DNA of 4,296 nt. It comes from a virus. Taxonomy: Duplodnaviria > Heunggongvirae > Uroviricota > Caudoviricetes. Numbering within the stretch: position 1 is the stretch's first letter; each line of letters begins with the position of its first letter. The stretch is taken from the IMG/VR virus record IMGVR_UViG_3300029229_000093. The stretch is one strand, 5' to 3'. The notes below the pieces were generated by a model. That model was not told where the DNA came from, searched no databases, and saw nothing but the letters and a program-made list of their open reading frames with translations. Both the position numbers and the translations under genes were made by a program. Positions 1,787 to 4,296 of the stretch are shown here, piece after piece.

Positions 1787-2160
1787 ATGACTGAACGCAT
1801 AGAATTTGTTTTGCCTTNNNNNNNNNNNCGCCAACGGTGAACACTTACTGGCGACGTCGTGGCAGCACATATTTTGTATCAAAAGTCGGTGAGCGTTATC
1901 GCCGTGATGTGGCGCTAATTGTTCGCCAGCAGCGGCTGAAATTAAACCTGTCCGGAAGGCTGGCGATAAAGATTATTGCAGAGCCACCGGATAAGCGCCG
2001 TCGTGACCTGGACAATATCCTGAAGGCACCACTGGATGCGCTGACGCATGCCGGACTACTTATAGACGACGAGCAGTTTGATGAAATCAATATTGTGCGC
2101 GGTCAGCTCGTTCCTGGTGGGCGGCTGGGGATAAAAATCACAGAACTGGAGTGCGCATGA
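1787..2160 (+). CDS. rusA: RusA-family Holliday-junction resolvase, interrupted by an N-run
   Basis: ATG at 1787 abuts the upstream stop (TAAATG) and encodes MTERIEFVLP before the N-run. After the gap the frame reads ...PTVNTYWRRRG...DKRRRDLDNILKAPLDALTHAGLLIDDEQ..., matching the RusA RRRDLDN catalytic region. Stop TGA 2158-2160. The two halves are out of frame across 11 Ns, so the true gap length is probably not 11. Confidence 0.7.
1818..1828. other. Run of 11 ambiguous bases (assembly gap or masked bases)
   Basis: Literal n characters in the sequence, inside the rusA reading frame. Confidence 0.99.
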
Positions 2161-2846
2161 ATAACCAGTATTTACAGTTTGTGCGTGAGCAGCTCATTAT
2201 CGCCACCGCTGATTTGAGTGGGGCAACAAAAGGTCAGCTTGAAGCCTGGCAGGAGAATGCCATGTTCGATACAGGGCGTTACAGGCGTAAAAAAATCCGG
2301 TACCGCGATGAAGTGACCGGAAAAATGATAACGCGGGATAATCCACCAATCCCGGGAAAACAATCGCTGGCGAAGGGGACGTCAATTCCTCTGGTCAGTC
2401 AGGTTGCTTTTTCTACATCATCATGGCGGCGGGCTGTTTTGTCTCTTGAAGAACATCATAAAGCCTGGTTGTTGTGGTGTTACGGCGAGAGTATTTGTTG
2501 GGAATATCAGATCGCGATAACACAGTGGGCGTGGAATGAATTTAATACTCAATCCGGTACCAGAAAAATTGCAGGGAAAACGCAGGAACGCCTGAAAAAA
2601 TTAATCTGGCTGGCTGCACAGGATGTCAGGAGATGGGTTATAGGACATGATATCTACCAGCAACAGGAGCTTGCCCGTCTGTGTGGGATTAAGCCTGACA
2701 ACTGGAGCCACAATTATGTGAGCTACTGGCGTGAAATACTCGACATTTTTATGAACCTCGATACCGAATCTCTGATTTGCACTGTGAAAAGGAGATCTCA
2801 ACAAAAAGCGGCATTTTTGCAGCGAGATATTGCAAAAGTCAATTAG
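2157..2846 (+). CDS. Putative late-gene antitermination protein Q (lambdoid Q family, 229 aa)
   Basis: ATG at 2157 overlaps the rusA stop (ATGA, 2157-2160), with SD GGAG (2147-2150). Stop TAG 2844-2846. Position directly after rusA and directly before a promoter plus short-leader terminator is the classic lambdoid Q-pR'-tR' arrangement. The ORF track also offers an upstream GTG at 2151. Family assignment is by synteny and size, not a verified alignment. Confidence 0.6.
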   Translation: MNNQYLQFVREQLIIATADLSGATKGQLEAWQENAMFDTGRYRRKKIRYRDEVTGKMITRDNPPIPGKQSLAKGTSIPLVSQVAFSTSSWRRAVLSLEEHHKAWLLWCYGESICWEYQIAITQWAWNEFNTQSGTRKIAGKTQERLKKLIWLAAQDVRRWVIGHDIYQQQELARLCGIKPDNWSHNYVSYWREILDIFMNLDTESLICTVKRRSQQKAAFLQRDIAKVN

Positions 2847-2858
2847 ATAGCATATATT
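2830..2858 (+). promoter_or_regulatory. pR'-like late promoter (sigma70 -35/-10)
   Basis: TTGCAA (2830-2835), 17-bp spacer, TATATT (2853-2858). Overlaps the 3' end of the Q ORF. Predicted start near 2865. Confidence 0.45.
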
Positions 2859-2869
2859 TTATGTAAATG

Positions 2870-2878
2870 TGATATATT
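2870..2878 (+). promoter_or_regulatory. Second -10-like element (TGaTATATT): candidate promoter-proximal pause / Q-engagement site, or alternative extended -10 promoter
   Basis: TG (2870-2871) plus TATATT (2873-2878), 20 bp downstream of the first TATATT. Lambdoid late promoters use a -10-like repeat in the early transcribed region for sigma-dependent pausing. Confidence 0.3.
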
Positions 2879-2893
2879 GCTGTAAAGTGTATA

Positions 2894-2920
2894 AACCCGC
2901 TCAAATGTGCGGGTTTTTTG
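2894..2920 (+). terminator. Rho-independent terminator (tR'-like) ending a short late leader RNA
   Basis: Stem AACCCGC (2894-2900) pairs with GCGGGTT (2909-2915) around an 8-nt loop TCAAATGT, followed by a T6 run (2914-2919). Confidence 0.75.
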
Positions 2921-2949
2921 CTTAACTCTGTGGACCTTTTTATCTGTAG

Positions 2950-2975
2950 TTGTAATATATGGATATTGTTACAAT
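2950..2975 (+). promoter_or_regulatory. Inverted repeat TTGTAA/TTACAA overlapping a candidate extended -10 promoter (TGtTACAAT) just upstream of the kinase gene
   Basis: TTGTAA (2950-2955) and TTACAA (2969-2974) are reverse complements separated by 13 bp. TG (2967-2968) plus TACAAT (2970-2975) forms an extended -10, about 7 bp before the kinase SD. Confidence 0.3.
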
Positions 2976-2992
2976 TTAGGTCGGTGAGCTTA

Positions 2993-3757
2993 ATGGAAGA
3001 ACAGCACGGTAATTACTTTATAAAACGAATTCAGTTGATTGGAAGAGGGGCATTTGGCTTTGTTGAACACGTTAAGGTTTACAACCTCAATAAAGGTGAA
3101 TGCGGGGATTATGCTAGAAAGGTTTTAGCACCCGAAAAACCAGAGCTTTTGGCGCAAATAGAGCAGTTTAGAAGGCGTTTTAAAAGGGAGGTTGTGTATC
3201 AATCACATTGCGTACATAGCAATATTGTTCCTATTTATTTGTGCGATTTGTTTGTTGAGAATCCATGGTTCATTATGGATAAAGCAGAATGTGATCTTGA
3301 GCACGAAATAACGAACAACCTTCTTACAACAGATCAAAAAATTTCAATAGTGAAAATGGTATTAGATGGTGTAGCTTACATCCATGCCAAAGGCTATTTA
3401 CACAGAGATATAAAACCCTTTAATGTTTTGCGATTTAGCGACGGAACATACAAGGTGTCTGATTTTGGTCTGGTAAAAGATACGAATCCCGAAGGGGATA
3501 CCACTAAATTGACCGAGATCGGTACCCGTATGGGAAGTACAAGATATATGGCTCCCGAGATTTTATATAATGCAGAGTATTCAGTTAAGACTGATGTTTA
3601 TGCTGTGGGACGGTTAATTGAAGACTTAAATTTAGATGATAAAAAAATAAAGCCTATCATAGCTAAGTGCACAAGGATGGATAAAGATGATAGATATCAG
3701 ACAATAGATGATGTGGCGTTTGATTTTGCGCATTCTTTTTTAAGGAGTGAGTCATGA
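2993..3757 (+). CDS. Eukaryotic-like (Hanks-type) Ser/Thr protein kinase, catalytic domain only (254 aa)
   Basis: Start ATG at 2993 with SD GGTGAG (2983-2988). Read directly: Gly-rich loop IGRGAFGFV (3038-3064), VAIK-type lysine in YARKV (K at 3119-3121), catalytic loop HRDIKPFN (3401-), DFG (3461-3469), APE (3551-3559), subdomain IX Asp in KTDVYAVG. Stop TGA 3755-3757. The longer ORF-track start at 2918 is rejected because it overlaps the terminator. Confidence 0.85.
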   Translation: MEEQHGNYFIKRIQLIGRGAFGFVEHVKVYNLNKGECGDYARKVLAPEKPELLAQIEQFRRRFKREVVYQSHCVHSNIVPIYLCDLFVENPWFIMDKAECDLEHEITNNLLTTDQKISIVKMVLDGVAYIHAKGYLHRDIKPFNVLRFSDGTYKVSDFGLVKDTNPEGDTTKLTEIGTRMGSTRYMAPEILYNAEYSVKTDVYAVGRLIEDLNLDDKKIKPIIAKCTRMDKDDRYQTIDDVAFDFAHSFLRSES

Positions 3758-4296
3758 TTCAGCTGATAGCGACTTCATCATTCTCGTATCCAAAAGAACC
3801 AGGTAGGGTCAACGAAGATTCATTGCTTCCTCCAAAAATTGTAGGAGACGGCGTCTTATTTGCCGTAGCTGATGGTGTAGGTTCATACTCTGGTGCCAGT
3901 TATGCTTCATCCATGGCAATCGCTGAACTTTCAGCATTGACAAGTTTATCTTTTGATGCAGTTCCGAATGTATTTGCTGAAGTTAAGCGAAAAGTTATGT
4001 CGTTAGCTGAAGTTAATGATGAGTTCGATAAAGCTGCTACTACACTTACCTTTTGTTATGTTTGTGATAGCGGAATTATTATTGGTCATATTGGTGATTG
4101 TCGCTTGTATTGCATTGGAGAAAAGAAAGCATATCAATTGACGAAGGACGATACCAGACATCAGATGTTAATTGATCAGAATATTTTTAAACCCAGAGAT
4201 TTGAAGAATAAACCGGGAAAAAATATCTTAACGACTGCCATAGCCTCAAATGTTGATATGGAATACGACTGTGATTTTATCCCGTGGAAAGATTTG
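3754..4296 (+). CDS. PP2C-family (PPM) Ser/Thr protein phosphatase, 5' portion (181 codons, continues past window end)
   Basis: ATG at 3754 overlaps the kinase stop (ATGA), with SD AAGGAG (3742-3747). PP2C motifs read directly: RVNED (motif 1), FAVADGVGS (DGxGG-like, D40/G41 at 3871-3876), TTLT, IGHIGDCRLY (GDSR-like, 4093-4098), LTKDDTRH (LTxDH-like), NILTTAIAS. No stop before 4296. Confidence 0.85.
   Translation, partial: MIQLIATSSFSYPKEPGRVNEDSLLPPKIVGDGVLFAVADGVGSYSGASYASSMAIAELSALTSLSFDAVPNVFAEVKRKVMSLAEVNDEFDKAATTLTFCYVCDSGIIIGHIGDCRLYCIGEKKAYQLTKDDTRHQMLIDQNIFKPRDLKNKPGKNILTTAIASNVDMEYDCDFIPWKDL

What the first reader, a model, noticed from the sequence alone, without database searches (positions are those of the whole stretch)
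2853..2920. Duplicated TATATT elements 20 bp apart before a very short terminated leader
TATATT occurs at 2853-2858 and again at 2873-2878 (with TG at 2870-2871). This resembles lambdoid late promoters, where a -10-like repeat in the early transcribed region pauses sigma70-bound polymerase for Q loading. The implied leader is only a few tens of nucleotides (roughly 35-55 nt depending on which start is used), much shorter than the lambda 6S RNA (about 194 nt), so this may be a compact variant Q-utilisation site.
Basis: partly seen in the sequence, partly recalled or inferred. Interest (0 to 1): 0.5.

Follow-up and report, generated by a model that had tools for sequence, protein, structure and literature searches.

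The report
Phage 82-type late promoter and pause site
The two TATATT boxes are the -10 element and the sigma70 pause element of a prophage late promoter of the well-studied phage 82/434 type, sitting directly after its Q antiterminator gene, so this is an ordinary member of a textbook system.

Summary
TATATT lies at 2853-2858 and 2873-2878, with TG at 2870-2871. A -35 TTGCAA lies 17 bp upstream of the first box, and an intrinsic terminator follows (hairpin 2893-2916, T-run 2914-2919). The gene ending at 2846 encodes a Q antiterminator of the phage 82 family (Pfam PF06323, 67% identical to Q82).

The window matches the published marks of the phage 82 late promoter, read from the inferred start A2865. 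These are an AAA start, an extended -10-like pause element at +6..+14, a G/C-rich +15-17, and an AT-rich stretch up to the pause site near +25.

Across 101 Q82-family loci (21 non-redundant, Q identity 31-97%) the layout is near-invariant: TTGCAAAA, then 32 bp, then TGATATnnT. It is better conserved than the promoter -10 box.

The terminated leader is inferred at about 53-57 nt. That is short compared with lambda but normal for this family. Phage 434 and six other lineages have the same short spacing, and most others give about 70 nt.

Function here rests on homology, not experiment. Interest is low.

The parts
2157..2846 (+). Q antiterminator gene, phage 82 family (229 aa). Its last codons overlap the late promoter -35 element.
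   Evidence: Pfam PF06323 E=3e-84. It is 67% identical to phage 82 Q over all 229 aa with no gaps. The same gene is annotated as Q in E. coli VR50. PF06323 is the Q82 family according to PMC7171158 and PMC9388147.
2830..2835 (+). -35 hexamer TTGCAA of the late promoter pR' (conserved as TTGCAAAA, 2830-2837).
   Evidence: Promoter scan. Information content is 1.91 of 2 bits across 21 non-redundant relatives. It is conserved even where it lies after the Q stop codon (Hafnia phage yong2 and phage Flotzy).
2836..2852 (+). 17-bp spacer containing the Q stop codon (TAG 2844-2846). This is the likely position of the Q-binding element.
   Evidence: PMC4914094 places the QBE between the -35 and -10 elements. 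The spacer has a partly conserved core, aAtTaAA, in the family alignment. The assignment is inferred, and conservation here is confounded by coding constraint.
2853..2858 (+). -10 hexamer TATATT of pR' (the first TATATT).
   Evidence: It aligns with the -10 of relatives (TATATT, TACATT, TATGTT, TATACT), at 1.39 bits.
2865..2867 (+). Inferred transcription start: AAA, with +1 = A2865.
   Evidence: 82pR' starts with AAA, which causes initiation stuttering. AAAT sits 6 nt after the -10 box, and +2..+4 are conserved at 90% or more in the family. The start has not been mapped here.
2870..2878 (+). Sigma70-dependent pause element (SDPE), TGATATATT. This is the extended -10-like repeat at +6..+14 (the second TATATT plus the TG).
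   Evidence: 82pR' has a -10-like element with an extended -10 sequence ending just before the +15-17 discriminator. TG scores 1.86 bits and the hexamer 1.51 bits. T+9, A+10, T+11 and T+14 are conserved at 90% or more. The distance from the -35 to the TG is 40 bp in every locus except one copy with a 1-bp deletion.
2879..2881 (+). Discriminator-like GCT at +15..+17 (GCC in 82pR' and most relatives).
   Evidence: One search reports that GCC at +15-17 is required for the 82 pause. The family consensus is gcC. The window and L033 have GCT.
2888..2890 (+). Predicted pause position, +24..+26 (U, G, U).
   Evidence: Inferred from the 82pR' pause at +25/+26, where the site is set by the G/C segment at +15-17 and a U 3' end is preferred. 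Not measured here.
2893..2919 (+). Intrinsic terminator tR'. The stem pairs 2893-2900 with 2909-2916, the loop is 8 nt, and the T-run is 2914-2919 (+50..+55).
   Evidence: Terminator scan. The leader RNA fold gives -15.9 kcal/mol, z = -2.7, and the hairpin is present in both the MFE and centroid structures. Relatives carry hairpins of different sequence at the equivalent place.
2993..4296 (+). First genes downstream of tR': a Ser/Thr kinase (2993-3757) and a PP2C phosphatase (3754 to beyond the window end). These are cargo genes placed ahead of the lysis genes.
   Evidence: Pfam Pkinase and PP2C hits. In the near-identical VR50 prophage they are followed by tRNAs, an esterase, a holin, a lysozyme and a lysis protein.

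Best explanation
Positions 2830-2919 are the late-gene control cassette (pR', sigma70-dependent pause element, tR') of a lambdoid prophage that uses a phage 82-type Q antiterminator.

Sigma70 holoenzyme binds TTGCAA (2830-2835) and the first TATATT (2853-2858) and starts at the AAA at 2865. Sigma70 stays on the early elongation complex. It re-binds the non-template strand at the extended -10-like TGATATATT (+6..+14, the second TATATT). This holds the polymerase in a scrunched pause near +24..+26.

Without Q, the polymerase escapes and terminates at the hairpin and U-tract at +29..+55, giving an RNA of about 53-57 nt. With Q, made from the gene that ends inside the promoter, Q binds DNA in the promoter region and loads onto the paused complex. 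The modified polymerase then reads through this terminator and later ones into the kinase and phosphatase genes, the tRNAs and the lysis genes.

Shown here: the sequence elements, their spacing, their conservation, and the family of the Q protein. Inferred from the phage 82 literature: the start site, the pause, Q loading and read-through.
For: 1. The upstream gene is a full-length Q82-family Q (PF06323, E=3e-84). It is 67% identical to Q82 without gaps and 63% identical to 434 Q.

2. The published 82pR' landmarks are an AAA start, a -10-like element with an extended -10 that ends before +15, GCC at +15-17, an AT-rich +18-25, and a pause at +25/26 (PMC5001585). With +1 = 2865 the window reads AAA, TG at +6/+7, TATATT at +9..+14, GCT at +15-17 and GTAAAGTG at +18-25.

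3. In 101 Q82-family loci (48 unique, 21 non-redundant, Q identity 31-97%) the -35-to-TG distance is 40 bp in every locus that has the motif, except L006 and L007. The -35, the TG and the pause hexamer are the most conserved non-coding blocks (1.91, 1.86 and 1.51 bits, against 0.5-0.7 bits in the flanks).

4. Gifsy-1 seemed to be an exception. It keeps the same site, displaced behind an inserted gene.

5. Of the first 120 hits to TTGCAAAA-N32-TGATATNNT in a viral contig collection, 77 lie directly after a Q82-family gene.

6. A terminator follows in 43 of 48 unique relatives. The stem sequences differ but the hairpin potential is kept. The window hairpin is stable.

7. Late lysis genes lie downstream in the near-identical VR50 prophage.
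Against: Nothing has been measured for this allele: no start-site map, no pause assay, and no test of Q-dependent read-through.

The full 82pR' sequence could not be retrieved. The only phage 82 record ends at the Q stop codon, so the match to 82 rests on landmarks stated in text and on close relatives.

The window deviates from the family consensus at +17 (T instead of C) and at -19 (G of the TAG stop codon). Single mutations at +15-17 halve the pause half-life in phage 82, so the pause may be weaker or shifted here.

Conservation of -35..-19 is partly confounded by the overlapping end of the Q reading frame. The prophage may be defective, so the site could be intact but unused.
Confidence: 0.88

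Rival explanations
1. The two boxes are tandem promoters. The second TATATT, with its TG, is an independent extended -10 promoter that starts transcription near 2885. It is not a pause element.
For: TGATATATT is a good extended -10 sequence, and such promoters need no -35 element (established knowledge). The sequence is as stated.
Against: A start near 2885 would lie only about 8 nt before the terminator stem and would give an RNA of about 35 nt with no evident purpose. The element keeps an invariant 40-bp phase to the upstream -35 across Q identities of 31-97%, which an autonomous promoter would not need. In phage 82 the homologous element was shown to act as a sigma70 pause site. Some secondary initiation there cannot be excluded.
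Confidence: 0.05
2. The site is a relic. It is inherited intact from a functional phage, but the prophage is defective and the cassette no longer controls anything.
For: The near-identical VR50 prophage carries pseudogene fragments downstream, including a truncated methyltransferase. The exact 100-bp allele is 100% identical in 30 genomes, which fits recent descent rather than continuing selection.
Against: The Q reading frame is intact and aligns end to end with Q82. In VR50 the holin, lysozyme and lysis genes downstream are annotated as intact. All promoter, pause and terminator elements are intact. This rival concerns present use, not what the element is.
Confidence: 0.05
3. The pair is a chance occurrence of AT-rich hexamers in an AT-rich intergenic region and has no function.
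For: TATATT is expected about 2.9 times in the window on both strands. A close same-strand pair arises in about 2-2.5% of shuffles.
Against: Both boxes sit in blocks conserved at fixed spacing in dozens of independent lineages, next to the same gene family.
Confidence: 0.01

Closest known systems
Phage 82 late promoter region (82pR', its sigma70-dependent pause element and terminator) with Q82
   Same: Same Q protein family (PF06323, 67% identity). Same -35 TTGCAA overlapping the end of Q. Same AAA start and same extended -10-like pause element at +6..+14. A G/C-rich +15-17 and an AT-rich stretch lead up to the pause site near +25. An intrinsic terminator lies within the first 100 nt.
   Different: The pause hexamer is TATATT here and TATTTT in the close relatives that fit all the published 82 marks (PPompW, 689R5). 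Positions +15-17 read GCT, not GCC. The +18-25 sequence differs. The terminator T-run starts at +50, against about +64-66 in those relatives. The complete 82pR' sequence itself was not available for direct alignment.
Phage 434 late control region (OL657226, Q82-like Q with an annotated terminator)
   Same: Same architecture and the same short leader. The T-run lies at +47..+54 in 434 and +50..+55 here. The sequence TGTATAAACCCGC leading into the terminator stem is shared.
   Different: 434 Q is 63% identical to the window Q and 89% identical to Q82. The 434 pause element is TGGTATGTT followed by GTA. The downstream genes are membrane proteins, not a kinase and phosphatase pair.
Lambda pR' / qut / 6S RNA with lambda Q
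   Same: The logic is the same. A sigma70 promoter is followed by a -10-like repeat that pauses the sigma70-containing polymerase. Q binds DNA in the promoter, loads at the pause and suppresses a downstream terminator.
   Different: Lambda Q belongs to an unrelated protein family (PF03589). The pause is at +16/17, not about +25, because the pause element lies 9 bp closer to the start. Termination is at +193, not about +55.
Phage 21 / 933W pR' with Q21
   Same: The same regulatory cassette: a Q gene, a promoter, a sigma-dependent pause element, a terminator and the late genes.
   Different: Q21 belongs to a third, unrelated family (PF06530). The window Q does not match that family in Pfam.

Membership tests
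Phage 82-type Q-utilisation cassette (pR'-SDPE-tR' of the Q82 family) | It lies immediately downstream of, and overlaps the 3' end of, a Q gene of the Q82 family (PF06323). | tested here: met
   PF06323 E=3e-84. 67% identity to Q82 over the full length. The -35 starts 17 nt before the end of the stop codon, as in relatives.
Phage 82-type Q-utilisation cassette (pR'-SDPE-tR' of the Q82 family) | A sigma70 promoter with -35 TTGCAA, a 17-bp spacer and a TAnnnT -10, followed by an AAA start. | tested here: met
   The sequence elements are present and conserved. The AAA start of 82pR' is stated in PMC5001585. Actual initiation has not been measured.
Phage 82-type Q-utilisation cassette (pR'-SDPE-tR' of the Q82 family) | An extended -10-like pause element (TGnTAnnnT) at +6..+14, which is 40 bp from the start of the -35. 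| tested here: met
   TGATATATT lies at 2870-2878. The spacing is 40 bp here and in all aligned relatives except L006 and L007. The position agrees with 82pR'.
Phage 82-type Q-utilisation cassette (pR'-SDPE-tR' of the Q82 family) | A G/C-rich discriminator (GCC) at +15..+17, followed by an AT-rich stretch up to the pause site. | tested here: inconclusive
   The window has GCT then GTAAAGTG. The consensus is gcC. In phage 82, single changes at +15-17 to A halve the pause half-life. The effect of C to T at +17 is unknown.
Phage 82-type Q-utilisation cassette (pR'-SDPE-tR' of the Q82 family) | An intrinsic terminator lies between the pause site and the late genes. | tested here: met
   An 8-bp stem plus a T6 run at 2893-2919. 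Lysis genes lie downstream in the near-identical VR50 prophage.
Phage 82-type Q-utilisation cassette (pR'-SDPE-tR' of the Q82 family) | A Q-binding element is recognised by the cognate Q. | not testable with these tools
   The QBE is reported to lie between the -35 and -10. The spacer is partly conserved, but no 82 QBE sequence could be retrieved and binding cannot be computed.
Phage 82-type Q-utilisation cassette (pR'-SDPE-tR' of the Q82 family) | A sigma70-dependent pause near +25 and Q-dependent terminator read-through. | not testable with these tools
   This needs in vitro transcription or reporter assays. It is inferred here from homology only.
Lambda-type qut site | The Q protein belongs to the lambda family (PF03589), the pause element lies at about +1..+6, and the leader is about 194 nt. 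| tested here: not met
   The Q is PF06323 only. The pause element is at +6..+14 and the terminator ends at about +55.
Phage 21 / 933W-type qut site | The Q protein belongs to the Q21 family (PF06530). | tested here: not met
   There is no PF06530 hit and the Q is PF06323.

The most novel reading that the evidence does not exclude
The short-leader class is the one in which the terminator stem begins only 3-5 nt after the sigma70 pause site and the terminated RNA is about 53-57 nt. It is seen here, in phage 434, phiES15, yong2, Flotzy and two other lineages. This class could be a functionally distinct design of the Q82-type site. It would require Q to make the polymerase termination-resistant within about 30 nt of loading. 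It could therefore serve as a natural test of whether Q82-family proteins act as a closed nozzle or as a NusA-dependent shield.
Probability: 0.08. Interest if true: 0.3.

Novelty: new member of a known kind. Interest (0 to 1): 0.13.

Why it matters
This locates the late-gene switch of this prophage. Transcription of everything downstream is predicted to depend on Q acting at this site, including the kinase and phosphatase cargo genes, the tRNAs and the lysis cassette.

It adds no new principle, because the mechanism was worked out on phage 82. The comparative by-products may be of modest use to people studying the Q82 family, which is the only Q family with no match among solved structures. 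Those by-products are the invariant 40-bp phasing of the -35 and the pause element, a pause element conserved more strongly than the promoter -10, and two preferred leader lengths.

Tried and rejected
1. Rfam search of 2700-3100 at a permissive E-value. It gave only sub-threshold hits to the Leu and Trp leaders and a few sRNAs, all resting on the terminator hairpin and all far below gathering scores. I rejected them.

2. Direct alignment with the phage 82 late promoter. The only phage 82 record held (X92588) stops at the Q stop codon. Searching papers for literal sequence strings of the pause region found only unrelated papers. The supplement with the template sequences is not held, and PMC3058920 is not held. 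I relied on landmarks stated in text instead.

3. A loose literature search on Q82, 82Q and t82 returned polyglutamine papers and was useless.

4. A PDB sequence search with the Q protein found no relative with a solved structure, only a marginal unrelated hit at E=0.006.

5. Gifsy-1 first looked like a family member without the site. Reading further downstream showed the site displaced behind an inserted gene.

6. I considered whether conservation of TTGCAAAA merely reflects the Q coding sequence. I rejected this because the block is also conserved where it lies wholly after the stop codon (L101 and L102).

Full report
**The observation**

The window reads ...GATATTGCAAAAGTCAATTAGATAGCATATATTTTATGTAAATGTGATATATTGCTGTAAAGTGTATAAACCCGCTCAAATGTGCGGGTTTTTTGC.... 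TATATT occurs on the + strand at 2853-2858 and 2873-2878 and nowhere else on that strand. TG lies at 2870-2871, so the second box is TGATATATT, an extended -10 form. The consensus scan pairs the first box with TTGCAA at 2830-2835 across a 17-bp spacer. It also reports a terminator-like hairpin at 2893-2916 followed by a T-run.

On statistics alone the pair is only mildly unusual. It appears in 2.5% of whole-window shuffles and 2.2% of shuffles of the 32%-GC intergenic stretch. The composite of -35, -10 and extended -10 appears in 0.25% of shuffles. The two boxes share only ATATATT, so they are not a duplication in the usual sense.

**Context**

The window is the nin/late-control region of a lambdoid prophage. 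It holds, in order:
- a DUF968 protein (731-1786);
- RusA;
- a 229-aa Q antiterminator (2157-2846, Pfam PF06323, E=3e-84);
- a 146-bp intergenic region that contains the finding;
- a Ser/Thr kinase (2993-3757) and a PP2C phosphatase (from 3754).

PF06323 is the phage 82 Q family (PMC7171158 and PMC9388147). The protein is 67% identical to Q82 over its whole length without gaps. It is 63% identical to phage 434 Q and about 78% identical to the Q of the PPompW and 689R5 phages.

A 99%-identical prophage in E. coli VR50 continues after the phosphatase. It carries a methyltransferase fragment, three tRNAs, a SASA-family esterase, a holin, a lysozyme and a lysis protein. The intergenic region therefore sits exactly where a lambdoid late promoter is expected. 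The exact 100-bp allele is present in 30 of 5,426 complete E. coli genomes, including strain 55989.

**Comparison with the characterised system**

Bird, Strobel and Roberts (PMC5001585) describe 82pR' as follows:
- an AAA start that stutters;
- a -10-like pause-inducing element that is closer to consensus than lambda's and includes an extended -10;
- GCC at +15-17, which is needed for the pause;
- an AT-rich segment at +18-25;
- major pauses at +25/+26, with sigma70 engaging at an RNA length of 21.

The PPompW and 689R5 phages fit every mark: TATATT-TCATGC-AAATC-TGATATTTT-GCC-GATTTTGT. Laid over them, the window reads TATATT-TTATGT-AAATG-TGATATATT-GCT-GTAAAGTG. This places +1 at A2865, TG at +6/+7, the second TATATT at +9..+14 and the predicted pause at about +24..+26 (2888-2890).

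The terminator stem spans +29..+52 and the T-run spans +50..+55. The inferred terminated RNA is therefore about 53-57 nt. The leader folds to -15.9 kcal/mol (z = -2.7), and the terminator hairpin is present in both the MFE and centroid structures.

**Family-wide test**

I collected 101 loci that encode Q82-family proteins, from species-representative genomes, viral contigs and named phages. They give 48 unique post-Q sequences and 21 representatives that are less than 90% identical over the 85 nt compared.

In every locus that has the motif, except L006 and L007, TTGCAA(AA) lies exactly 40 bp upstream of the TG of TG(A/G)TATnnT. L006 and L007 are an E. coli copy and a Shigella copy that share a 1-bp deletion.

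| Block | Information content (bits, maximum 2) |
|---|---|
| -35 hexamer | 1.91 |
| TG | 1.86 |
| Pause hexamer | 1.51 |
| Promoter -10 | 1.39 |
| Flanks | 0.5-0.7 |

T+9, A+10, T+11 and T+14 are conserved at 90% or more. By general knowledge of -10 elements, these correspond to the positions that matter most for sigma70 recognition.

The pattern holds down to 31-35% Q identity (phage Flotzy and Hafnia phage yong2). In those two phages TTGCAAAA lies after the stop codon, so its conservation cannot be explained by coding constraint.

Gifsy-1 looked like an exception. Its Q gene has a replaced 3' end and is followed by an inserted antirepressor-like gene. The canonical site (TTGCAAAACTGGATTAAAACGGCTATATTTTATGTAAATCTGATATCGTCGCC) sits just after that insert.

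As a reverse test I scanned viral contigs for TTGCAAAA-N32-TGATATNNT. Of the first 120 hits, 77 lie directly after a Q82-family gene in the same orientation. Nearly all the rest look like chance hits inside coding DNA of AT-rich phages.

**Leader length**

| Class | T-run start | Unique sequences (of 48) |
|---|---|---|
| Short | +47..+50 | 7 |
| Middle | +64..+76 | 33 |
| Long | further downstream | 3 |
| No terminator by my criterion | - | 5 |

The short class holds the window type, the L080 type, phage 434, L008, phiES15, yong2 and Flotzy. The middle class includes the 82-like PPompW group. Some of the five sequences without a terminator have visibly mutated stems.

Stem sequences differ between lineages (CCCGC/GCGGG, CTGCC/GGCGG, CCACC/GGTGG, GCCTCG/CGAGGC) while hairpin potential is kept. 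The window shares the run TGTATAAACCCGC with phage 434.

So the leader is short relative to lambda, where termination is at +193. It is ordinary for this family, and the same spacing occurs in a classical phage.

**Mechanism**

The best-supported reading is the textbook one. Sigma70 holoenzyme starts at 2865. Retained sigma70 region 2 re-binds the non-template TATATT at +9..+14, helped by the TG. The complex scrunches and pauses near +25. Q, bound in the promoter region, loads onto the paused complex. The modified polymerase ignores the terminator at +29..+55 and later terminators.

The elements, their spacing, their conservation and the protein family are shown here. Initiation, pausing, Q loading and read-through are inferred from phage 82.

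The window has two small departures from the consensus. Position +17 is T instead of C, and the pause hexamer is closer to the -10 consensus (TATATT, not TATTTT). These could shift pause strength or position. With G at +15, U at +24 and G at +25, a pause at +24 would fit the elemental pause pattern. That is my inference.

**Rivals**

A second autonomous extended -10 promoter at 2873-2878 is possible in principle. It would give a pointless RNA of about 35 nt, and it does not explain the invariant phasing to the upstream -35. Chance is excluded by the comparative data. A relic in a defective prophage is possible, but that concerns present use, not identity.

**Novelty**

This is an uncharacterised allele of a well-characterised element. 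The most novel reading left open is that the short-leader class is functionally distinct. I give that a probability of about 8%. No relative of the Q82 family is among solved structures, so natural variants of its loading site have some practical value. The finding itself is ordinary.

Noticed in passing
window 2993-3757 and 3754-4296: A Ser/Thr kinase and a PP2C phosphatase sit directly behind the late terminator, ahead of the tRNAs and lysis genes. The kinase matches anti-phage defence kinase models: mad6 (E=6e-40), PD-T4-6 (E=1e-34) and Stk2 (E=1e-27). The phosphatase has no PADLOC hit. Cronobacter phage phiES15 also has a kinase right after its Q82-family Q and short leader. This may be a Q-controlled or independently expressed defence cargo.
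   Followed up: partly
L098 / L225 (Gifsy-1, NC_010392 about 33470-33520) and L110: In Gifsy-1 the 3' end of the Q gene is replaced and an antirepressor-like ORF (STM2616) is inserted after it. The canonical 82-type promoter and pause site, with the last codons of the original Q, survives about 0.65 kb downstream of Q, just after that ORF.
   Followed up: partly
window 2822-2835, minus strand: In phage 434 a CII-binding site (TTGCN6TTGC) and the -35 of the antisense promoter paQ are annotated on the opposite strand, across the pR' -35. The window has TTGCAATATCTCGC there, one mismatch from the CII consensus. The promoter scan also lists a minus-strand promoter-like site at 2842->2813.
   Followed up: no
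window 1818-1829: A run of 12 N lies inside the rusA gene. In the near-identical VR50 prophage only about 3 bases (ACC) lie at that place. The N-run is therefore a placeholder that does not preserve length or reading frame.
   Followed up: partly
window 2949-2975: A weak inverted repeat, TTGTAA (2950-2955) and TTACAA (2969-2974), lies in the AT-rich stretch just upstream of the kinase start codon. The stretch is conserved in the L080-type relatives. It could be a local promoter or operator for the kinase, or nothing.
   Followed up: no
L006 / L007 (E. coli ECMA0423, Shigella flexneri SFBU1023): These two copies carry a 1-bp deletion next to the -10 box, giving a -35-to-TG distance of 39 bp, and a changed pause hexamer (TGATACTTT). 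They were the only loci retaining the motif that broke the 40-bp phasing, and they may be decaying prophages.
   Followed up: no
window 2872-2892: The minimum-free-energy fold of the leader adds a weak AU-rich hairpin, pairing 2872-2878 with 2886-2892, that overlaps the pause element. It is absent from the centroid structure.
   Followed up: no
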